Shown: positions 1,569-52,584 of the stretch, in pieces
How positions within the stretch are numbered: position 1 is the first letter of the stretch
How the letters are laid out: each line of letters opens with the position of its first letter
IMG/VR virus record: IMGVR_UViG_3300032046_000034
Span: 1 to 52,584 of that record
Origin: a virus
Lineage: Duplodnaviria > Caudoviricetes
Direction: 5' to 3' (one strand)
Length of the DNA stretch: 52,584 nt
Translations under genes and position numbers: made by a program
The notes under the pieces: generated by a model
The model's input: the letters and a program-made list of their open reading frames with translations, nothing else
What the model was told of the DNA's origin: nothing
Database searches by the model: none

Positions 1569-3101
1569 CTAAGCCTCCACCAGAAACTGCTCCCTACATC
1601 GGACGCAAGTAAGGCTCGCGCCGACGTTGACGCCCTCGCCTACCTTCCGGCCACACTTAGTACACCGGACTTCCTCAACGAGAGCGGCGGGGCCAGGAGG
1701 AAGAGCCGGAGGCTGAATCGGCGGAGGCGGGGGTGCCTCAAACGCCCCCGCCTTCAGGATCATCATGTTGGCCGGCACCATGAACGTGCCGTCGGTCGGG
1801 TTCGGGTCGAAGCCGATGGCCTCTCGCCCCTCTTCCCAGGACTCCAAGCCGCCAGCCACGTTCTTGCGGTGCCGTTCGTGAATCTTGTCCACGTCTTCCT
1901 GTAGGGCTCGGATATCGCTCAGGTCGAACAGAAGATCGTCGATGCCCCCGAAGTCGGGCCGGAGCCGAAGGTTCAGCACATCGTCCAGGTCGCTCAGGAG
2001 CGGCGTCATGGTCAGGTCCCAGAAGACCTGCCAGTCCTGGCGCTTGTTGGCGTAGGAAGAGGACTCATAGCCGATCAGGAGGCCGAGGATGGAGCCGGGA
2101 ATCCCGAAGACCATTGCGATCCGCGCTTCCTGGACGGCGTCGATCTCCTTGGGCAGGGCGTCGCGTAGACCTCGGTTCAGGCCCATCTGCTGATAGGTAG
2201 ATTCGGCCTGGTCGAGGATCATCATCTCGTGATAGCCGCCCGCGCCGCCGAACTGCCGCCGGAACCTTTCGCGGATCTCGTCCTTGGCTTCCTGGGAGAC
2301 CTTCTGCTTCACCGACAGGATGGACCCGGGGCCGGTGCCGCCGCGCTCGAAGAAGGACTGAAGGAAGTTCCGCATGTATTCGTCGATGTCCACGCGGCCG
2401 GCGATCGCCATCAGCGGCGGCATACCGTAGTAGTCACTCAGCGGGTGCCGCGTCTTGAAGTGGATGATGTCTTTGGGCGGATAGGTCACGCCGGCGGCGC
2501 CACCATACTCATACCCCGCGATGAAGTTCTTGGGGTCGGGGATGATCCGCACGCGGTCGGGCCGCAGGCGCCACAGTTCAGCCACCGCGCCCTTGAGCGG
2601 GCCATCCTGCACGCGGGCCTTCAAGAGATAGGCGTTGCCAGCCAGGGCGCGGTCCATGACGATGGTGCCCCACATCTGGCCGCGTGACATGAAGGGGTTG
2701 GGGTTGTTGAGTAAGCGAATGAGTGCATGGTTCGGGAGATCGAGGTAGAAGCCGTTCTCGACCATCCGGGCGTACACGTCCCGCAAAGGCACGCCCCGGT
2801 GGATAAGCCGATGCTCCTCAGCCTTGATCGTGGCCCTGACCTCGGCGCCAACGCTGTTCTGGAACATGGGACTCTCGCGGCGCCAGCGCCGGCCGACGAT
2901 ATGAGGCTCCCCCGCTGAGGTCGCCAGCATTTCGATGGCGGCGAAGACGATCTCGTTCCGCATGTAGGCGCGTGAGTAGCCGAGGTATCCCTGCTGCGGC
3001 AGCGCCCCGTACTGCTGCCAGGGGACGCTTAGAACCGGCGGGGCCGCCGCTGTCTGTCGCCTGACTACCGTGCGGAGTGCATCTGCGATCAAGCCCATCA
3101 T
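1569..3101 (-). CDS. HK97-family portal protein with C-terminal Pro-rich linker and zinc ribbon
   Basis: LLNNPNPFMS, LAGNAY, LWRLRPDRV, IIHFK..P..DYYGMPPL and IAMVFGIP motifs; start MMGLIADAL. Confidence 0.93.
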   Translation of the reverse strand: MMGLIADALRTVVRRQTAAAPPVLSVPWQQYGALPQQGYLGYSRAYMRNEIVFAAIEMLATSAGEPHIVGRRWRRESPMFQNSVGAEVRATIKAEEHRLIHRGVPLRDVYARMVENGFYLDLPNHALIRLLNNPNPFMSRGQMWGTIVMDRALAGNAYLLKARVQDGPLKGAVAELWRLRPDRVRIIPDPKNFIAGYEYGGAAGVTYPPKDIIHFKTRHPLSDYYGMPPLMAIAGRVDIDEYMRNFLQSFFERGGTGPGSILSVKQKVSQEAKDEIRERFRRQFGGAGGYHEMMILDQAESTYQQMGLNRGLRDALPKEIDAVQEARIAMVFGIPGSILGLLIGYESSSYANKRQDWQVFWDLTMTPLLSDLDDVLNLRLRPDFGGIDDLLFDLSDIRALQEDVDKIHERHRKNVAGGLESWEEGREAIGFDPNPTDGTFMVPANMMILKAGAFEAPPPPPIQPPALPPGPAALVEEVRCTKCGRKVGEGVNVGASLTCVRCREQFLVEA

Positions 3102-3256
3102 TTCACCTTGATCTGAAGCAGGCGAGGGGCCCAACCAGCCATTCTGGCGGTGACCCCTGGAGACACCATTTGCACAAGGAGGCAGAGCCTCAGCCATAGA
3201 ACCGCCAACCAGACACGCCGTATTTCAACTGAGATTGAGAGACCTCCTGGAGCCAT
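3098..3256 (-). CDS. Small hydrophobic protein (52 aa)
   Basis: MAPGGLSISVEIRRVWLAVLWLRLC...; TAATG and ATGA overlaps with neighbours. Confidence 0.55.
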   Translation of the reverse strand: MAPGGLSISVEIRRVWLAVLWLRLCLLVQMVSPGVTARMAGWAPRLLQIKVK

Positions 3257-3420
3257 TAGATCGACCTCATTTCCTCAAAGACTGCCACGGCGATCCCGCC
3301 CACCGCAGCCAGGAGAATGAGCCCGATGGCGACGGCTACAAGCAGGACGAACAGCTCCGCAAGCATCTGCCTGTCCTCAGAGTCGAGCAGGGAATCCAAG
3401 AGGCGCAGGAGCCTCCTCAT
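3256..3420 (-). CDS. Small membrane protein (54 aa)
   Basis: MRRLLRLLDSLLDSEDRQMLAELFVLLVAVAIGLILLAAVGGIAVAVF; one TM helix; coupled to neighbours. Confidence 0.65.
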   Translation of the reverse strand: MRRLLRLLDSLLDSEDRQMLAELFVLLVAVAIGLILLAAVGGIAVAVFEEMRSI

Positions 3421-6859: not shown

Positions 6860-7570
6860 TTAGCCTTTGCATGGTACGGCAACGACTCCCAGACTTTGGC
6901 GGTTCAGATTTTTGACCGGGTATTCCCACTTGTGGCGCGGATGCCGTCTCAACTTTGGTCTATACGATTCACGATTCCTTACCCTCATCATTGCGAGCGC
7001 GCAGAACGGGGAACAATATCTCCACCGTGAACTGAGAGCAAAGGGTTCCCCGCAATATGCACACTGGCGCTCGGTCGGTGACAGGCCTTCGGGCCTTGGC
7101 TCCGCGCTAGCACCCAGCGGTAGTTGTACGGGAATGCGTCCTATCCAGCGGGCCGAGTTACAACTGCGGTGAGCAAGAGCGATATTGGTCCATTCATCTG
7201 AGCCACCATAGCTAAAGGGGATCAAGTGATCGTGGCTAGCGTTCTCACGTTTCACCTGCTTGCTACAGATATGACATCGCCAACCATCACGTTCGCCTAG
7301 ATCATTAAGGTTTACCCTCGCCCGCCTCGCCCTTCCCGCGCCTGGACTATGAGGTATCTGGTGGGCGAGGCCAGCGCACTTCCTAGAGCAGTACTTCGCT
7401 TCTGCGTGTCCCTTGCTCTTGAAGAGGCGGCCACAAGTCACGCAGGGTATCGCCTCTCGATGATGATTGGTCGGAGAATGCTCAGCACATCGTCGCCCAT
7501 AGCCTTTGGCGAAACGGACTGCGCTCACGTTAGTACAGGCGATGCCACAGATTTCACAGACACCATTCAC
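6860..7570 (-). CDS. HNH endonuclease with Zn-finger repeats
   Basis: ERDGWRCHIC...DHLIPFSYGGSDEWTNIALAHRSCN. Confidence 0.88.
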   Translation of the reverse strand: MNGVCEICGIACTNVSAVRFAKGYGRRCAEHSPTNHHREAIPCVTCGRLFKSKGHAEAKYCSRKCAGLAHQIPHSPGAGRARRARVNLNDLGERDGWRCHICSKQVKRENASHDHLIPFSYGGSDEWTNIALAHRSCNSARWIGRIPVQLPLGASAEPRPEGLSPTERQCAYCGEPFALSSRWRYCSPFCALAMMRVRNRESYRPKLRRHPRHKWEYPVKNLNRQSLGVVAVPCKG

Positions 7571-7596
7571 GCCATCCCGAGAGGTCGGACTGCGCC

Positions 7597-7920
7597 TTAT
7601 CCCCGTCCCGCCCTCGCTTCCCGCCTTCGCTTGATCTCATTGCACTGAACACATGCGGCAACGAGGTTTGAAGGATCATCACTACCGCCTCGGGCCAAGC
7701 CGATGACATGGTCGACCACGGTTGCCGGGCCGCCACAGTAGCGACAGGTGTAGTTGTCCCTCAGCAAGACGCTCACCCGTACTCGCTGCCAGGCCCAACC
7801 TGAGCCAGAGGTCATCTGGTGTGGGCGACTTCGTTGCCACGGCTTGATGGGATGAACGGCACAGGGACGGAGATGTCCACAACCCGGCGTCGAGCAGGGC
7901 GAGGCGGGAGCGGTGGGCAC
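7597..7920 (-). CDS. Small HNH protein (HK97 gp74-like packaging cofactor)
   Basis: LRDNYTCRYCGGPATVVDHVI..ARGGSDDPSNLVAACVQCN; size and position typical of cos phages. Confidence 0.85.
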   Translation of the reverse strand: MPTAPASPCSTPGCGHLRPCAVHPIKPWQRSRPHQMTSGSGWAWQRVRVSVLLRDNYTCRYCGGPATVVDHVIGLARGGSDDPSNLVAACVQCNEIKRRREARAGRG

Positions 7921-8207
7921 TACGGGATGCTCCTCAACTCAGCAAGGTTCCGCTCGTCTACGGCCAGCATGTAGCGGATCTCGTGCTCGCGGCCTCGGGG
8001 CGGAAGCCGTGATGGGTAGTCATAGGTGCCCGCTCGCTTCGTCGCCTCAGCCATGAGGAAGGCCCGTAGTACGGGGTCACGCTTCACGGGCTCGTCCACA
8101 TAGCCGCAGGTGCAGCATGAATGATAGACGCCGGCCGGCCCCTCTAGGTGCCAGCAGGTGACTCCCCCACAGTGAGGGCAGGGCCCGGGTGGTACTCGCT
8201 TGCACAT
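7920..8207 (-). CDS. Zn-ribbon hypothetical protein
   Basis: CPHC...CCTC; abuts the HNH gene. Confidence 0.55.
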   Translation of the reverse strand: MCKRVPPGPCPHCGGVTCWHLEGPAGVYHSCCTCGYVDEPVKRDPVLRAFLMAEATKRAGTYDYPSRLPPRGREHEIRYMLAVDERNLAELRSIP

Positions 8208-8212
8208 GGCAT

Positions 8213-8239
8213 AAGAAAACGCCCCCATCTCTGGGGGCG
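8213..8239 (-). terminator. Intrinsic terminator
   Basis: CGCCCCCA-GAGA-TGGGGGCG then TTTTCTT. Confidence 0.75.
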
Positions 8240-8968: not shown

Positions 8969-9385
8969 TCATCTCCTTCCGCTGACTACAAGAAGTGTCT
9001 CTACCTCCGGCTCCGTAAACCCGCCCCCTTCCGCCGAGCACACCCACCGGAAGGCGGTGTTGAGCAGCCTGCCGGCCGTCTCCCGCGTCGCCGGTCGGGC
9101 CAGCTTGGCGCCGATATCCTCTAGTGTCTTGCTAGCGATCCATAAGTCGGCTACCATTCGCAAACGTACACCATCGGGGTGTGCCCACTCTAGCCTCCCG
9201 AGGGCCCGGCAGAGGTCGAAGTAGTCAACGCTGACGGGGTACATACGCCCGCCCCTGCCTTGAATGCCCATCGAGATTAGGCATCGCGGCGGCTCGCCAG
9301 CTCGGCAGCCGGCTAGACCTTCGGCTTTCGCTCTCCAATGAGGACTGCCATCACGAACCTTGACCCACCAAGGCCGCTCGCCCAC
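8969..9385 (-). CDS. Putative HTH regulator (sigma region 4-like late activator)
   Basis: C-terminal KTLEDIGAKLARPATRETAGRLL HTH-like segment; position ahead of the late module. Confidence 0.45.
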   Translation of the reverse strand: MGERPWWVKVRDGSPHWRAKAEGLAGCRAGEPPRCLISMGIQGRGGRMYPVSVDYFDLCRALGRLEWAHPDGVRLRMVADLWIASKTLEDIGAKLARPATRETAGRLLNTAFRWVCSAEGGGFTEPEVETLLVVSGRR

Positions 9386-9396
9386 TCGCAGCCCTT

Positions 9397-9828
9397 TCTC
9401 CCCGCCTTAGAACGCCTTGCCTGCCCTACCACGCCCGAACGCACCAAGCCCAAGCGGGCCTTGCCTCACCAGCCTTACCACACCCGGCCCAGCCCAGCCA
9501 GGCCGCGCCAGGCCCCGTCACGCCCAGCCGCGCCGCGCCAGACCGCGCCATGCCTGCCGCACCCCGCCTTGCCGCACCCCGCCGCGCCGGACCGCATCGC
9601 ATCCCGCCGGACCAGACCTCTCCTCGCCTCGCCTGCGCTGCCTTGCCGCACCAGGCCAGGCCTCGCCGCACCCGGCCAAACCTCGCCTCACCGGGCCACG
9701 CCACGCCTCACCGGGCCACGCCACGCCAAGCCCCGCCTGCCTCGCCCGCCTTGCCTCACCAGATCGCACCCCACCAGGCCGCGCCACTCCTAGCCTCGCC
9801 ACGCCGAACCTGCGATACCTTGCCTGCC
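9397..9828 (-). ncRNA. GGY-NN pentamer array (candidate guide-RNA array)
   Basis: Five runs of 12, 20, 15, 16 and 9 pentamers (64 of 72 start GGC/GGT) separated by 4-nt phase breaks; begins at the stop codon of the gene pair upstream. Confidence 0.8.
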
Positions 9829-10283
9829 TAGGCTGCCTGCTCCTCCTCCTTCGCGTACTTCCCCAGGACACGGGCAATCGCCGCGAACACGGGCTTCAGT
9901 TCGGTTAGCGCCCCGTAGGTATGCCGCCAAGTCTGCAACTCCGCCAGGGCCATCAACAGCCACTCGTGCCGCTGCTCCGGGTTCGCCATCACATCCTTAC
10001 TGAAGCGGTAGCCCTGCTTTGCCGGCCGGTCGCTGGTCAGTGAGAGCAGCAACCGAATCGGCGCTTGACTGGCAGGCTCCACCACCCAGTAGGCCGCGAT
10101 TAGCTCCCGCGCCTGCCACAATCTGTACTCATGGGCGGCCTTCTCGTCATTCCAGAGGAATTGCCCATGCAGGGGCGAGGCTTCATCCACCGCAGCCATT
10201 ACGACCTGCTCGGGCCGCACCAAGCCGCGGTTCTTCTTGGCGATCTTCCTCAGTTCATCGAGTATCTTGGTGTCCTTCTTCAT
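9828..10283 (-). CDS. Accessory protein of the RAMP/array locus
   Basis: PEQVV.AA.DEASPLH.QFLWND..AA..YRL.QAR.LI motif; ATGA-coupled to the RAMP gene. Confidence 0.75.
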   Translation of the reverse strand: MKKDTKILDELRKIAKKNRGLVRPEQVVMAAVDEASPLHGQFLWNDEKAAHEYRLWQARELIAAYWVVEPASQAPIRLLLSLTSDRPAKQGYRFSKDVMANPEQRHEWLLMALAELQTWRHTYGALTELKPVFAAIARVLGKYAKEEEQAA

Positions 10284-10972
10284 TCCGGCATTTCTCCTAT
10301 CACGTCGAAGAGGCCGTAGCCGATGCCTGCTGACTTCTTGCTGTCGGGGCGCCCCTCGCCGATGCCGACCTGCTGGCCAGCTCGCATCAGGAGATTCGCC
10401 AGGTCAGAGAAGGCAATCATGTCGGCGTCGAACCGGATGCGAAGCGCCGCATGCCATTCGTCAAACCGTGGTCGGGCCCGCAGGTCGACGACGCCCGTCT
10501 CATTGCGAGCATAGCGGACATCCATGACAGGCTCACCATAGACCCGCACGAGCGGCGTTCCGTCCTCATCGATGCCATCGGCCTCAATGAAGGCCGCCAA
10601 TTTCATCTGCGTCATCTTGATGCCAGCGGTTCGGCAAGCGGAGATCATCGCGCCCCGGATGGAGGCTGCATTGAACCCGTCCCAGCCAGCCTTCTTGTCA
10701 CGGTAGCGGGCTGCCTCATATTCGGCGTCGAAGTCCCGGGGCGGCTTATCCTTCCTGCTCTTGTTGACGCGGCTCCCCGCTTGATGCTTCGCCATGAGTT
10801 CTGCTTTGGCGGAGAAACGGTGTAACATGAGTGGAGCGGTCCCCACGATGTGGGCGGTCGCTATCTTGAAGTTCGGGGCGGTGACTGTAAGGACTCCACC
10901 TTCCTGAGCCGCCCCGACTTCCTGTCGCCTCTCCTCCAATAGAACTGTCCCTGGCCCATTCTTCCGTACCAT
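10280..10972 (-). CDS. Stand-alone Cas7/RAMP-like RNA-binding protein
   Basis: IVGTAPLMLHRF first strand, AASIRGAMISAC helix, C-terminal Gly loop AGQQVGIGEGRP..GIGYGLF; GGAGGTGA RBS. Confidence 0.75.
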   Translation of the reverse strand: MVRKNGPGTVLLEERRQEVGAAQEGGVLTVTAPNFKIATAHIVGTAPLMLHRFSAKAELMAKHQAGSRVNKSRKDKPPRDFDAEYEAARYRDKKAGWDGFNAASIRGAMISACRTAGIKMTQMKLAAFIEADGIDEDGTPLVRVYGEPVMDVRYARNETGVVDLRARPRFDEWHAALRIRFDADMIAFSDLANLLMRAGQQVGIGEGRPDSKKSAGIGYGLFDVIGEMPE

Positions 10973-11020
10973 TTCACCTCCTGGCCCTTCCGGGCCGCTA
11001 CAAGCTGCCATCCGGCAGTT

Positions 11021-44091: not shown

Positions 44092-45120
44092 CTACGCCAC
44101 CCGCTCAAGTAGGGTCGCCATGCGGGTCGCGCAATCGTGTCCTTGAATCGCTTGGTGCTGCTTCTTCGCCACCTCCTCCCTCCAAACGGGATCGTCTAGT
44201 GCCCGTCTCATAAGCCGCCCGAACTCGGCCGGCGTCTGGTAGATGGGCACCGTGTCGCCGAAGATGTCCTCAACCTCCTGGCGGAAGTCGCTTATCTGGA
44301 AGCAGCCACAGGCCGCCAGCTCGAACGTCCGGGGGCTGGCGCTGTACGCCTCGCCCTCATCGATCGTCCAGTCCATGTCGATGTAGCGCTGGCTACGGTG
44401 GATGCTGAAGCTCATGGCGGCCTGCCGATAGAGGTCAGCAGCCATTTCGTTCTCTATGGCCCCGTCCCGTACATAGGGACGGAGACTCCAGCGGGAGGGC
44501 ATGGCATTCCACAGGCCGTACATCTCGAGGTCGATGCCCCGCCAATCGACAGCGTGAAGGAACTGCCGCCGACTGCCGTAGGCCGAGCCCACCCACACGA
44601 CGCGCTCACCCTCAGCGGGGTTGGGCGCCGGATAATGAATGACCGGATCGTAGGAGTGCGGCAGGTACATCACGTTGTCACAGAAGCTCTCATAGAGTCC
44701 CAGGCTGTAGCGGTCGTTCACCATGACGTAGTCGAAATGCGCCGCTTGGACGGGGGCGATCAGCGTGTCCTCATACGGGCACTCCGTGAAGTAGCCGATG
44801 GTCTTGATGCCCGACCTGCTCAACAGGTCAGCTATCGGCACCGGGAAGTATTGCGGGCTGACGACGATCACAGCGTCGACCTCGTGGTAGTGGGCCGCGC
44901 CGAAGATGGGCTCGTAGGCCAGGAGGTTCGACTTGAACGGCTCAGGCATGACTACCTTCGCCTTCCGTGCCAGGTCGAACATCGCATCAAAGGCGTTCCA
45001 TCGCGGGAGCAGGTCGAAGGGGTAGACCTCAGCACCGTTGGCCGCGAGGCCCACCAGTACCCGCTTCCAGACGTCCCTCGTGCTGAAGCCATGCGGAGAG
45101 GAAATGACTAGGAACCTCAT
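44092..45120 (-). CDS. Glycosyltransferase (GT-B, CgeB-like)
   Basis: YLPHSYDP, VVWVGS.Y.SR, SPRTFELAACGCFQISD. Confidence 0.85.
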   Translation of the reverse strand: MRFLVISSPHGFSTRDVWKRVLVGLAANGAEVYPFDLLPRWNAFDAMFDLARKAKVVMPEPFKSNLLAYEPIFGAAHYHEVDAVIVVSPQYFPVPIADLLSRSGIKTIGYFTECPYEDTLIAPVQAAHFDYVMVNDRYSLGLYESFCDNVMYLPHSYDPVIHYPAPNPAEGERVVWVGSAYGSRRQFLHAVDWRGIDLEMYGLWNAMPSRWSLRPYVRDGAIENEMAADLYRQAAMSFSIHRSQRYIDMDWTIDEGEAYSASPRTFELAACGCFQISDFRQEVEDIFGDTVPIYQTPAEFGRLMRRALDDPVWREEVAKKQHQAIQGHDCATRMATLLERVA

Positions 45121-45361
45121 GTCTCGGTCAAAGCCTCCGCGAACGAGCAGGTCTTCGCATGGGCACCAGTCAGTAGAGAGTCGCAGCATGTCCGGTAGAT
45201 GGCGCAGGGCGCATGGCGTAGGGCAGCGTAGAGGCCGTCCTTGAGGCCCTCTAGTGCCACCTCAGTTACCTCATTCGCCACCCGGAAGACCAGTCCCTCG
45301 CCGGGCCGCCATTCGATGAACTCGACCTCGGCCCGTTCCTTGCCGACGAGGATGATGATGC

Positions 45362-51295: not shown

Positions 51296-52584
51296 CTATG
51301 CCCGTGCCGCCAGGGCGACGTAGGGGCTCAGCGTCGAGCCGTAGACTGGGGTCAGAGCGGACTGCACCCAAGGGCGTCCGTCCACGCGCTCCACGGGCTT
51401 CAGAGCCGTCTGGTCGCTGGTGAAGTAGGCGTGCTCCGAGGTTGAGATCTCGATGGACTGCCGGTCGCCGATAAGGTAGTACCCCAGATCGAAGAAGCCG
51501 ATGTCCCCCTGGTCACCTAGGGTCGGCACCTTCTCGGTGAAGATCAGGGGCCGGGAGAGCATCGTCATCAACGGCCCGTTGCGGATGTCGACAAGCGCCA
51601 CCGGGGCGCCGCCCACGCCGACGGAGATGGAAAGCGTCATCAACTCCTTGAAGGTGTTGATGTTCGCAATCCAGACCCCCCTGCCCAGCGAGCCGGGCAG
51701 CATCCGGGAGAACATATTGAGGATGTTCTCGACGACGATGCTGTCGGCGGGCTGGTCGGTCTCCTTGTCGACCGCTATGAGGGCCTCCGACTCCAGGACG
51801 CCCTTCGGCTGACCAGCGCCGTTGCCAGTGAGGAACGCTAGGTCCTCGAAGAAGGCGAGGCCCTTCGGAAGCGCCTGCATCAGCCAGCTCGACAGGGCTG
51901 CGGCGTCGTTCCACAACTCGTTCGGAACGGCAGCCAGGCCCATGAGCTTGTTGGCGTCCAGTTTGACGCGACCGAACTTGGCCTGGGTGATGGTCGGGGT
52001 GGCGCCCTCCTCCGTCCAGTAGAAGACCATCCCGCCTAGCACAGAGCCAGAGTTCGTCGTGGAATCGATGAACGGTATGGACTGAGTCGGCGTGGTCATC
52101 GTGATGACCGTCGCCCGCGGGCGGACGATGGACTCCTCAAGGGCGAGCTGCATGATCTCGGAGCGCATGGTCTCAGGGATCAGGTAGCCGCCGGCACTCG
52201 GGTCGACCGAGCTGTAGGCGGCCTGAACCTTGCGGATCTCAGGCAGGCGATTGTCGGGGAATGGGTTATTGTGCCAGATAGCCTTGGTGAAGTCACCAAG
52301 GCTGGCGAACCCGACATCTTCCATCCTCACGCCGGGAGCCAGGGGGTTGTAGCAAGCATTGACCTTGGCACCCGTGCAGGGCTGGGGGTGTTCTGGCGGT
52401 CCCAGGTTCGGCCGGTTGACGCCGCGCTCCTTCAGGTAGGCGTCCAGGGTGTCTCTGGTTGCCTTGGCCGCCCGCTCCTCGATGGCGCCGGCACCAGCCA
52501 TTCCAGCGGTGACGGCCTCCATCACCATGTCGCGCAGCGGGCCACGCTCATCTGTCAGCTTCGCGTGGGCAGCGACAATTTCCT
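51296..52584 (-). CDS. Major capsid protein (HK97 fold), 3' part
   Basis: GGYLIPE, WTEEG, FLTGNG.GQPKG, Y.IGDR, ERVDG, SPYVAL. Confidence 0.95.
   Translation of the reverse strand, partial: EIVAAHAKLTDERGPLRDMVMEAVTAGMAGAGAIEERAAKATRDTLDAYLKERGVNRPNLGPPEHPQPCTGAKVNACYNPLAPGVRMEDVGFASLGDFTKAIWHNNPFPDNRLPEIRKVQAAYSSVDPSAGGYLIPETMRSEIMQLALEESIVRPRATVITMTTPTQSIPFIDSTTNSGSVLGGMVFYWTEEGATPTITQAKFGRVKLDANKLMGLAAVPNELWNDAAALSSWLMQALPKGLAFFEDLAFLTGNGAGQPKGVLESEALIAVDKETDQPADSIVVENILNMFSRMLPGSLGRGVWIANINTFKELMTLSISVGVGGAPVALVDIRNGPLMTMLSRPLIFTEKVPTLGDQGDIGFFDLGYYLIGDRQSIEISTSEHAYFTSDQTALKPVERVDGRPWVQSALTPVYGSTLSPYVALAARA

What the first reader, a model, noticed from the sequence alone, without database searches (positions are those of the whole stretch)
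9638..9737. Array unit U2 decodes, as a gapped NNx code, to a non-self HK97 capsid motif
Seen: the U2 dinucleotides are GG TT GT GT CC GA [GT GT CC GA] GA TT CG GC GA CT CT GC AA AG. Taken as codon positions 1-2 and collapsing the bracketed duplication, they read G-F/L-V-V-P-E/D-E/D-F/L-R-A-E/D-L-L. This phage's own capsid has G-Y-L-I-P-E-T-M-R-S-E-I-M at 52189-52151 (GG TA CT AT CC GA AC AT CG TC GA AT AT). Five of 13 dinucleotides are identical, 17 of 26 bases match, and 11 of 13 second positions match. Inference: the guide targets the conserved capsid motif of a related competing phage, skips wobble positions so synonymous escape fails, and avoids self.
Basis: inference. Interest (0 to 1): 0.9.

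Follow-up and report, generated by a model that had tools for sequence, protein, structure and literature searches.

The report
Phage VIPR guide aimed at capsid genes
This stretch is one guide RNA of a phage-borne VIPR system, a recently described cousin of CRISPR, and its variable letters spell the most conserved motif of other phages' major capsid genes but not of the phage's own.

Summary
On the minus strand, 9737->9638 is 20 perfect GGYNN pentamers with exactly the dinucleotides listed. The own-capsid comparison (5/13, 17/26, 11/13) is exact.

The locus is a VIPR system, a kind described in 2026 preprints. ORF 10280-11011 is a Vipr homologue: its profile hits the solved SUSP1 Vipr protein (E 1.4e-5) and its fold hits Cas7-type RAMPs. 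A 151-aa accessory-like gene and a staggered GGY/NN array of about 78 units follow.

An uninterrupted 10-dinucleotide stretch of U2, read with the published 1-nt skip, has 45 exact matches in IMG/VR. A reversed-order control has 1 and a 2-nt-skip control has 0. All 45 lie in codon phase in Pfam Phage_capsid genes, at GFLVPEEFRAELL.

The best targets match 28/32 (collapsed guide) or 24/28 (3' 14 units). The own capsid matches 17/26, and none of its 120 nearest relatives can reach 80% over 16 units.

Caveats:
- The 20-unit guide as it stands stays below the published 80% criterion, because of a 20-nt duplication.
- Host, expression and silencing are untested.

Verdict: a new member of a known kind with an interesting target.

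The parts
10280..11011 (-). vipr gene (RAMP/Cas7-like guide-binding protein). The ORF is 243 aa; the collection's gene call is 230 aa.
   Evidence: A profile of 34 homologues hits PDB 36pp_D 'SUSP1 Vipr protein' at E 1.4e-5, covering 30-204 of the profile and 2-180 of 202 residues, including the G-rich loop GxGxxRP. The AF2 model has pLDDT 79.1. Foldseek top hits are Csm3/Cmr4/type VII Cas7 chains, 22 with E<=1e-3. There are 5491 homologues and none carries a Pfam family. It matches phrog_4652.
9828..10283 (-). 151-aa accessory-like gene (candidate vap), overlapping the vipr stop. Its own stop lies at the start of the array.
   Evidence: It matches phrog_15946 and has 32 homologues. It is conserved next to vipr in L002 and in Mycobacterium phage Saal (gp52, BLASTP E 2e-15). 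The AF2 model has pLDDT 83.6. There is no significant fold match; the best are weak MarR/winged-helix-like hits at E about 1. No Pfam, NCBIfam or PADLOC family matches.
9397..9837 (-). Staggered vrRNA array of GGYNN pentamers in six in-phase runs, separated by 4-nt (once 3-nt) slips such as GGCA, CGCA and GGCT (3-nt: GCG).
   Evidence: The parse gives the runs. 68 of 78 units are GGY-conform and this is the only such array in the genome. The slips fit the '1-nt overlapping' staggered arrays in the legend of fig. S18 of the VIPR preprint.
9746..9810 (-). Run A, 13 units (NN: TC GT GA TA GT GC CT GG GC CT GA AA GG)
   Evidence: No target was found: its 10-dinucleotide core has 0 hits in IMG/VR.
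9638..9737 (-).
9688..9727 (-). Perfect 20-nt tandem duplication inside U2 (units 3-6 = units 7-10). Without it U2 has 16 units.
   Evidence: It is also present in a contig of a second sample. The two units before the duplication (GG TT) match the two target codons (G, F) only when the duplication is collapsed.
9653..9702 (-). Core of U2, units 8-17 (GT CC GA GA TT CG GC GA CT CT), uninterrupted in the real sequence. Decoded: V P E/D E/D F/L R A E/D L L.
   Evidence: It has 45 exact 1-nt-skip matches in IMG/VR against 1 and 0 in the controls. All 45 are in phase in Phage_capsid genes.
9559..9633 (-). Run C, 15 units
   Evidence: No above-chance match in the window or in the fetched loci.
9475..9554 (-). 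Run D, 16 units
   Evidence: No above-chance match.
9397..9470 (-). Runs E (9 units, 9426-9470) and F (5 units, 9397-9421), the decaying end of the array
   Evidence: The 146 nt covering run F and the sequence downstream of the array (9280-9425) do not fold better than shuffles (z 0.03).
52151..52189 (-). The phage's own capsid motif GYLIPETMRSEIM, homologous to the targeted motif but a poor match to the guide
   Evidence: 17/26. On the 10-unit core it matches 13/20.
51296..52582 (-). Own major capsid gene (HK97 family). It runs off the window end.
   Evidence: Pfam PF05065 at E 1e-48. Homologues are about 458 aa long.

Best explanation
The window is a 52.6-kb uncultivated phage genome from sediment metagenomes. 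It carries a VIPR system: vipr (10280-11011), a 151-aa accessory-like gene (9828-10283), and directly downstream on the same strand a staggered array of GGYNN pentamers.

By the published mechanism, Vipr protomers polymerise along the RNA and bury each GGY. They present each NN for pairing with double-stranded DNA while every third target base is skipped.

Read that way, U2 spells G-F/L-V-V-P-E/D-E/D-F/L-R-A-E/D-L-L. This is almost exactly the GFLVPEEFRAELL motif at the start of the HK97-type capsid domain in a different, diverse set of phages. The skipped bases fall on codon third positions. The guide therefore effectively reads the protein motif and is blind to synonymous change.

The predicted effect is binding inside the major capsid gene of a co-resident or co-infecting phage and silencing of its transcription. 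The phage's own capsid gene and those of its near relatives (GYLIPETMRSEIM / GFLIPETMRSEIM) are spared.

Shown here: family membership of the protein, array anatomy, the match statistics, gene identity and phase of the hits, and the absence of self-matches. Inferred: that the RNA is made and processed, that U2 in its present duplicated form is active, that binding silences, and that the matched phages share the host.
For: **Vipr membership**
- Profile hit to the solved SUSP1 Vipr protein, E 1.4e-5, near full length.
- The predicted fold is nearest to Cas7-family RAMPs.

**Array**
- 68 of 78 units are GGY+NN, and U2 is 20 of 20.
- It starts at the stop codon of the accessory gene.
- The same gene-gene-array order, with wholly different NN, occurs in 8 of 10 related loci that I examined. 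The other 2 contigs end too early or show no array.

**Target**
- The exact 10-dinucleotide core has 45 IMG/VR loci. Reversed dinucleotide order gives 1, a 2-nt skip gives 0, and other array-derived 20-base patterns give 0 and 0.
- 45 of 45 hits are in phase in ORFs of 305-663 codons, and 45 of 45 match PF05065.
- These capsids form 30 clusters at 90% aa identity and are 21-55% (median 41%) identical to the own capsid.
- Over the 58 exact-core hits (45 viral, 13 genomic), the collapsed 16-unit guide reaches >=26/32 in 23 (best 28/32). The uninterrupted 3' 14 units reach >=23/28 in 25 (best 24/28).

**Self-avoidance**
- No unit reaches 80% anywhere in the window; all sit at shuffle level.
- Among the 120 nearest capsid homologues, the upper bound for the 16-unit guide is below 80% in 120 of 120.

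**Published basis**
- The 1-nt skip rule, wobble-phase targets, lack of self-targets, staggered arrays and silencing are described in bioRxiv 10.64898/2026.04.26.720920 (sections read: Results, Discussion, Methods 18, 20, 26, 27).
- Also in 10.64898/2026.04.26.720927 (abstract, section 6) and 10.64898/2026.10.15.759431 (abstract, sections 6, 17).
Against: - The collapsed units 1-10 have none either. No perfect target is known.
- The guide as it stands (20 units, with the duplication) scores at most 28/40 (70%) on capsid genes and 30/40 overall. 0 of 58 hits reach the published 80% criterion. The good scores need either the collapse or restriction to the 3' 14 units.
- On three near-complete target phage contigs the collapsed guide scores 25/32 (78%), and no other unit of the array matches them.
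- In prokaryote genomes the core has only 13 hits. Of the 10 ORFs scanned, 2 are capsid genes and the rest are unrelated genes, so there is a chance background.
- The matched capsids come from contigs of unknown or very different hosts. The two capsid-gene hits in prokaryote genomes lie in a Chloroflexota MAG and a Pseudonocardiaceae MAG. Competition in one cell is not shown.
- The core pattern was chosen after I had seen the relaxed-pattern hits.
- vrRNA ends, expression, RNP formation and silencing were not tested.
Confidence: 0.8

Rival explanations
1. Relic guide. U2 once targeted GFLVPEEFRAELL-type capsid genes, but the 20-nt duplication inserted four units and threw the 5' six units out of register. 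The present RNA binds poorly or not at all, and the match is a fossil.
For: The as-is 20-unit guide never reaches 80% (max 28/40 on capsids). The GG TT units match the target only after collapse. The duplication is fixed in contigs of two samples.
Against: Fourteen uninterrupted units still match up to 24/28, with a 10-unit exact core. Published vrRNAs work with 9-16 units, and a six-unit footprint is reported as the functional target of SUSP1 vrRNA4 (10.64898/2026.10.15.759431, section 6). All 20 units keep a perfect GGY. Runs of 17-21 units occur in related arrays.
Confidence: 0.13
2. Coincidence. The array is real, but its resemblance to a capsid motif is numerology produced by free choices: collapse, strand, unit and degenerate decoding.
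For: At the nucleotide level the self-match (17/26) is at shuffle level. The collapse and the choice of core were made after the fact. 11 of 13 hits in prokaryote genomes show no capsid motif, and 8 of the 10 scanned by Pfam are not capsid genes.
Against: 45 exact hits stand against 1, 0, 0 and 0 for four other 20-base patterns in the same collection. All 45 are in one gene family and in phase. The core is uninterrupted in the real sequence, so it does not depend on the collapse. The decoded peptide's best genome-wide match is the homologous motif of the own capsid (1 of 300 shuffles).
Confidence: 0.03
3. Self-regulation or decoy. U2 binds the phage's own capsid gene weakly to time late expression. 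Alternatively it serves to redirect or titrate another element's Vipr, as satellite-borne solo vrRNAs do.
For: The own capsid motif is the best peptide-level match in the genome. Redirection of Vipr by vrRNAs of another element is published (10.64898/2026.10.15.759431, abstract).
Against: The own site matches only 17/26, and 13/20 on the core. This is at shuffle level and far below the matches to foreign capsids. The published surveys found no self-targets >=80% (10.64898/2026.04.26.720920, Methods section 27). The array sits with its own vipr, so it is not a solo vrRNA.
Confidence: 0.03

Closest known systems
VIPR systems (Viral Interference Programmable Repeat), type II of Escherichia phage SUSP1 and the Pseudomonas fulva prophage (bioRxiv 10.64898/2026.04.26.720920; structures in 10.64898/2026.04.26.720927)
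   Same: A small Vipr RAMP-like protein sits next to an accessory gene. The RNA is made of GGY/NN pentamers. Targets are read with a 1-nt skip in codon phase, there is no self-target, and the system is phage-borne.
   Different: Here the array is continuous and staggered, with 4-nt slips between runs and no recognisable conserved 3' tail or pseudoknot. Runs hold 5-20 units. The protein is only distantly related to SUSP1 Vipr (E 1.4e-5). The identified target is a major capsid motif. 'Capsid' occurs 0 times in the main text of that preprint, but its target tables are in supplements that I could not see.
SUSP1 vrRNA4 against the F5 satellite recombinase (bioRxiv 10.64898/2026.10.15.759431)
   Same: The guide footprint matches codon periodicity. 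The read positions are near-invariant across many targets and the skipped wobble positions vary, which blocks escape by synonymous change.
   Different: That target is one gene of one satellite family in one host species. Here the read motif is shared by capsid genes of at least 27-30 distinct lineages from unrelated samples, and nothing has been tested experimentally.
Class 1 CRISPR Cas7 filaments (Csm3/Cmr4, Cascade) and CRISPRi
   Same: The RAMP fold is shared: Foldseek top hits have E about 1e-4. A protein filament forms on a guide RNA and a thumb breaks pairing periodically. The outcome is silencing by binding.
   Different: There are no CRISPR repeats or spacers, no adaptation genes and no nuclease in the locus. 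The guide information is spread over dinucleotides of a pentamer repeat, and 1 of 3 target bases is skipped rather than 1 of 6.
GGCNN array with gp51/gp52 of Mycobacterium phage Saal and 10 other cluster-F-like phages (Cheoctovirus)
   Same: It has the same two proteins: gp51 against the Vipr profile gives hhalign 99.7%, E 2e-25, and gp52 against the 151-aa protein gives E 2e-15. It also has the same kind of staggered array, punctuated by GGCA|GGC, with runs of about 11 units.
   Different: The array lies upstream of vipr instead of downstream. The host is Mycobacterium smegmatis. The genes are annotated as hypothetical proteins, and I did not search for targets.

Membership tests
VIPR system | A Vipr protein: a small RAMP homologue with RRM core, glycine-rich loop and thumb | tested here: met
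   The profile of 34 homologues hits the solved 'SUSP1 Vipr protein' (36pp_D) at E 1.4e-5 over 175 of 202 residues, including GxGxxRP. The AF2 model has pLDDT 79 and its nearest folds are Csm3/Cmr4/Cas7. I did not inspect the thumb residue by residue.
VIPR system | Adjacent non-coding tandem YNNGG (GGY/NN) repeats, at least 4 units, with conserved GGY and hypervariable NN | tested here: met
   There are 78 units in six runs, 68 of them GGY-conform, starting at the stop codon of the neighbouring gene. NN differ completely among 8 related arrays while GGY is kept.
VIPR system | An accessory gene (vap) in an operon with vipr | tested here: inconclusive
   A 151-aa gene overlaps the vipr stop and is conserved with vipr in L002 and in phage Saal. 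It has no family name and no significant fold match. I could not compare it with vap1-6 because their sequences are in supplements.
VIPR system | A natural target found by the 1-nt skip rule at >=80% NN match, typically in a coding sequence with the skip at wobble | tested here: met
   The 16-unit collapsed U2 reaches up to 28/32 and the uninterrupted 3' 14 units up to 24/28, with 45 exact 10-unit core hits, all in phase in capsid genes. The 2-nt-skip control gives 0. The criterion is not met by the as-is 20-unit run (max 70% on capsids). No target was found for runs A, C, D and E.
VIPR system | No self-target at >=80% NN match | tested here: met
   Best self matches are 60-72% for all runs, equal to shuffles.
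VIPR system | vrRNAs are expressed, processed and co-purify with Vipr; binding silences transcription | not testable with these tools
   No RNA run is listed that holds the locus. Only DNA contigs were laid.
VIPR type II (SUSP1-like) | Separate vrRNAs of about 100 nt, each with a conserved 3' tail of about 40 nt forming a pseudoknot | tested here: not met
   Runs abut with 4-nt slips (once 3 nt) and no tail between them. The sequence after the last run does not fold better than shuffles. The architecture fits the 'staggered arrays' of fig. S18 instead (legend seen). The type (I-VII) is not assigned.
CRISPR-Cas | An array of direct repeats of 20-40 nt with spacers, plus cas genes | tested here: not met
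   No Rfam family reaches its gathering score anywhere in the window. Tandem-repeat and repeat parses show only the 5-nt period. No PADLOC family matches the three genes of the locus tested (vipr, the accessory-like gene, and the ORF downstream of the array).

The most novel reading that the evidence does not exclude
U2 is a family-level 'anti-capsid' guide. Because it reads only codon positions 1-2 of the most conserved stretch of the HK97-type capsid domain, a single small RNA could silence the major capsid genes of dozens of unrelated phage lineages. At least 27-30 capsid clusters in IMG/VR carry an exact 10-codon match. The carrier's own capsid clade escapes through amino-acid changes in the same motif (Y/F-L-I-P-E-T-M-R-S-E-I-M). 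VIPR pressure would then be a selective force on capsid motif evolution. Guides of this kind would act as broad-spectrum superinfection exclusion rather than as element-specific weapons.
Probability: 0.3. Interest if true: 0.7.

Novelty: new member of a known kind. Interest (0 to 1): 0.5.

Why it matters
VIPR systems were described only in 2026, and their natural targets are known for a few clades: a satellite recombinase, prophage regulators and other VIPR loci. This case shows a guide in an uncultivated sediment phage whose readable letters coincide with the hallmark motif of a structural gene shared by many phages.

If it is active, one guide can act at the level of a protein family. This bears on three questions: how broad VIPR interference can be, how guides arise and decay (the duplication), and how capsid motifs evolve under such pressure.

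The case also shows that the published decoding rule can be applied to a raw array to predict a target class. It points to a tractable relative in cluster-F mycobacteriophages of Mycobacterium smegmatis.

Tried and rejected
- **Rfam scan of the whole window.** No family reached its gathering score.
- **Coding reading of the array.** I considered it early. All frames are open only because GGYNN lacks stops, and the flanking genes and the Vipr context make it non-coding.
- **First ideas, before the literature search.** G-quadruplex or R-loop origin, CsrA sponge, Chi-like array, Rho site. I dropped them once the Vipr homologue and the VIPR papers were found.
0 hits in viral contigs, metagenome contigs and genome contigs. 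Collapsed units 1-10: 0 hits.
- **Targets for the other runs.**
  - Run A core: 0 hits in IMG/VR.
  - Runs A, C, D and E against 0.72 Mb of fetched capsid-bearing loci, against three near-complete target contigs, and run A against two MAGs plus those contigs with up to 3 mismatches: nothing above shuffles.
  - Peptide-level matching of runs A, C, D and E to the window's six frames: the best p values of 0.01-0.02 fall on the non-coding strand, among 12 tests, so I did not count them.
- **Guides of 8 related arrays against this phage.** All at chance level.
- **Homologue of U2 in related arrays.** None seen.
- **Accessory protein.** The fold search gave no significant match, and the PDB profile search gave none.
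- **Signals around the array.** No promoter-like or terminator-like site on the coding (minus) strand; the scan's one promoter-like and one terminator-like match both lie on the plus strand and are at shuffle level. The region covering run F and the sequence after the array is not structured.
- **Sequencing runs.** No RNA holder is listed. Only DNA contigs of four sediment metagenomes could be laid.
- **Host.** Not determined. The genome search draws no relatives for a virus record. Names attached to homologues by sources are MAG bins of Dehalococcoidia and Acidobacteriota, which I treat as hints only.
- **Supplementary files of the papers.** Closed. The VIPR type tables, vap sequences and target lists (data S3, S4) could bear on type assignment, on whether capsid targets are already listed, and on whether mycobacteriophage loci are already listed.
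Full report
**What is at the coordinates**

The minus strand of 9638-9737 is 20 consecutive pentamers. Units 3-6 and 7-10 are a perfect 20-nt tandem duplication at 9688-9727.

The unit is one in-phase run of a larger array on the minus strand, about 9837->9397. A dynamic-programming parse splits the array into six runs:

| Run | Coordinates (minus strand) | Units |
|---|---|---|
| A | 9810->9746 | 13 |
| B = U2 | 9737->9638 | 20 |
| C | 9633->9559 | 15 |
| D | 9554->9475 | 16 |
| E | 9470->9426 | 9 |
| F | 9421->9397 | 5 |

The runs are separated by 4-nt (once 3-nt) slips such as GGCA, CGCA and GGCT (3-nt: GCG). 68 of 78 units are GGY-conform, and no other such array exists in the genome.

The window is the whole deposited genome, 52,584 bp. 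All neighbouring genes are on the minus strand, so the array is G-rich in the sense direction.

A contig from a second sediment sample of another study covers 9465-10047 without a single difference. The duplication is therefore not an artefact of one assembly.

52189-52151 (minus) encodes GYLIPETMRSEIM in a gene that matches Pfam Phage_capsid at E 1e-48. The counts are right: 5/13 dinucleotides, 17/26 bases and 11/13 second positions.

At the nucleotide level this is not above chance. Three positions in the window reach 17/26, and 200 order-shuffles give a mean of 4.5 such positions with maxima of 17-20.

At the level of the decoded peptide it is above chance. The own capsid motif is the best six-frame match in the genome (BLOSUM score 41, runner-up 33), and only 1 of 300 shuffles does as well. 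A guide aimed at the homologous motif of a diverged capsid gene would look like this.

**What the locus is**

A literature search for pentanucleotide repeats in phages led to bioRxiv 10.64898/2026.04.26.720920. I read its abstract, Results, Discussion and Methods sections 18, 20, 26 and 27, plus figure legends by term search.

The preprint describes VIPR systems. A small RAMP-like Vipr protein, usually with one accessory gene (vap), is paired with vrRNAs made of GGY/NN pentamers. The NN dinucleotides pair with double-stranded DNA while one target base is skipped per unit. Natural targets were called at >=80% NN match. They lie mostly in coding sequences with the skip at the wobble position, and no self-targets were found. 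Array forms include 'staggered arrays' whose vrRNAs overlap by 1 nt.

Two further preprints add to this:
- 10.64898/2026.04.26.720927 gives the structural basis (abstract and section 6).
- 10.64898/2026.10.15.759431 gives an in-vivo case in which a six-unit footprint on a satellite recombinase matches codon periodicity (abstract and sections 6, 17).

The window fits this description.

- **vipr.** ORF 10280-11011 has 5491 homologues without any Pfam family.
  - A profile of 34 of them hits the solved 'SUSP1 Vipr protein' at E 1.4e-5 over nearly its whole length, including the glycine-rich loop.
  - Its AlphaFold model has pLDDT 79.1.
  - The model is nearest to Csm3, Cmr4 and type VII Cas7 chains.
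- **Accessory gene.** The next gene (9828-10283, 151 aa) overlaps the vipr stop. It is conserved beside vipr in a related IMG/VR contig and in Mycobacterium phage Saal. Its fold has no significant match, so I call it accessory-like without assigning it to vap1-6.
- **Array.** The slips between runs correspond to a shared G between the last unit of one run and the first of the next. This is what the legend of fig. S18 describes.
- **Relatives.** Of 10 related loci (Vipr 78-88% identical), 8 show an array in the same place with the same GGY scaffold and entirely different NN. The other two contigs end early or show none.
- **Tail.** I found no conserved 3' tail, so the type II architecture is not met. 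The type remains unassigned.

**The target of U2**

Collapsed units 1-10 have none either.

Among the 120 nearest homologues of the own capsid, the motif drifts toward the decoded U2 in the more distant ones, for example GFLIPEEFRAEIL. The hits read GFLVPEEFRAELL.

The decisive test uses units 8-17 (9702->9653). This stretch is uninterrupted in the real sequence, so it does not depend on collapsing the duplication.

| 20-base pattern searched in IMG/VR | Hits |
|---|---|
| U2 units 8-17, 1-nt skip | 45 |
| Same dinucleotides, reversed order | 1 |
| Same order, 2-nt skip | 0 |
| Collapsed U2 units 1-10 | 0 |
| Run A, units 2-11 | 0 |

All 45 hits lie in ORFs of 305-663 codons with the NN on codon positions 1-2, and all 45 ORFs match PF05065. 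They form 30 clusters at 90% amino-acid identity and are 21-55% (median 41%) identical to the own capsid.

In the 596-Gb prokaryote collection the same core has 13 hits. Of the 10 ORFs I scanned, 2 are capsid genes, in a Chloroflexota MAG and a Pseudonocardiaceae MAG. The others are unrelated genes: a sigma-54 activator, MMPL transporters and ORFs with no family. This gives a measure of the chance background.

**How good the match is, and the duplication**

Scores over the 58 exact-core hits:

| Guide version | Best score | Hits at >=80% |
|---|---|---|
| Collapsed, 16 units | 28/32 | 23 (>=26/32) |
| Uninterrupted 3' 14 units | 24/28 | 25 (>=23/28) |
| As it stands, 20 units | 28/40 on capsid genes, 30/40 overall | 0 |

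The first 13 collapsed units match the common target at 25/26. The single difference is G versus C at the first base of unit 3. The last three units (GC AA AG) match poorly.

The GG and TT units in front of the duplication match the G and F codons only after collapse. This suggests that the ancestral guide had 16 units and that the duplication came later.

Runs in related arrays reach 17-21 units. All 20 units keep GGY. Published work reports function with 9-16 units and a six-unit footprint. I therefore think the present RNA can still engage the target through its 3' part, but this is inference. The rival view, that it is a relic, gets 0.13.

**Self and kin are spared**

No run of the array reaches 80% anywhere in the genome. 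The best values are 60-72%, equal to shuffles. The own capsid matches 17/26, and 13/20 on the core.

From protein sequences I computed an upper bound for the 120 nearest capsid homologues (49-95% identical to the own capsid). None can reach 80% over 16 units, and 12 of 120 could over the first 13. The guide thus discriminates between capsid clades by amino-acid differences within one motif.

**What is not shown**

- I found no targets for runs A, C, D and E.
- I found no convergence of several guides on one phage.
- The host of the carrier and of the matched contigs is unknown.
- No RNA data exist for the locus.
- The core pattern was chosen after I had seen the relaxed hits, although the size of the excess does not depend on that choice.
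- I ran two matched controls, not hundreds.
- Target lists, type tables and vap sequences of the preprints are in supplements that were closed. 'Capsid' occurs 0 times in the main text of the first preprint. In the third preprint it occurs only in satellite-calling methods. I cannot say that capsid targets are unreported.

**Verdict**

The thing itself is a member of a kind described in 2026, so it is not categorically new. Its interest lies in three points:
- the target, which is the hallmark motif of the major capsid gene of many phage lineages, read at protein-motif resolution;
- the visible decay or remodelling of a guide by a 20-nt duplication;
- a tractable relative of the same system in cluster-F mycobacteriophages.

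Noticed in passing
L001 (Mycobacterium phage Saal, NC_023580.1) 1794-3260; also 10 other Mycobacterium phages (13 further records): Cluster-F-like mycobacteriophages (Cheoctovirus) carry a staggered GGCNN array of about 240 nt between gp50 and gp51. It has runs of about 11 units punctuated by GGCA|GGC. gp51 (248 aa) is a Vipr homologue (hhalign 99.7%, E 2e-25). gp52 (151 aa) is homologous to the window's 151-aa accessory-like protein (E 2e-15). All are annotated as hypothetical proteins. 'Mycobacter' occurs 0 times in the main text of the first VIPR preprint; its supplements were not seen. I did not search for targets.
   Followed up: partly
L002 7055-10125 (IMG/VR contig): In the closest IMG/VR relative (Vipr 78% identical), the vipr, accessory gene and array lie immediately upstream of a capsid-like gene of a different type (motif GGFLVQTDYTNALLEE by my reading of the sequence). 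I did not test that gene against any family. The VIPR module therefore sits in a different genomic neighbourhood than in the window.
   Followed up: partly
window 9638-9642, 9558-9555, 9425-9422 and run ends in L104, L106: Runs tend to end with similar units, GGCAG, GGTAG or GGTAC followed by GGCA, in the window and in relatives. This may be a conserved 3' handle or processing signal rather than guide letters. It would explain why the last units of U2 match targets poorly.
   Followed up: no
window 44920-44958 (minus), ORF 44092-45189: The second-best decoded-peptide match of U2 in the genome is KVVMPEPFKSNLL, in a 365-aa ORF with no PHROG family. It is probably chance.
   Followed up: partly
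window 6860-8228 (minus): Two HNH endonuclease genes (6860-7570, 7597-7920) and a weak Lar-like restriction-alleviation match (7920-8228, below Pfam's cut-off) lie just downstream of the VIPR locus.
   Followed up: no
window 51296-52582 (minus): The major capsid gene runs off the window end, and homologues are about 458 aa long. The deposited genome is therefore cut, or circularly permuted, within the capsid gene.
   Followed up: no
window 10318-10378: Contigs of all four sediment runs pile up here at much higher depth, with 8 differences, and run on into unlike sequence. This is the conserved C-terminal G-loop region of vipr, shared by other, more abundant Vipr-bearing elements in the same samples.
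   Followed up: no
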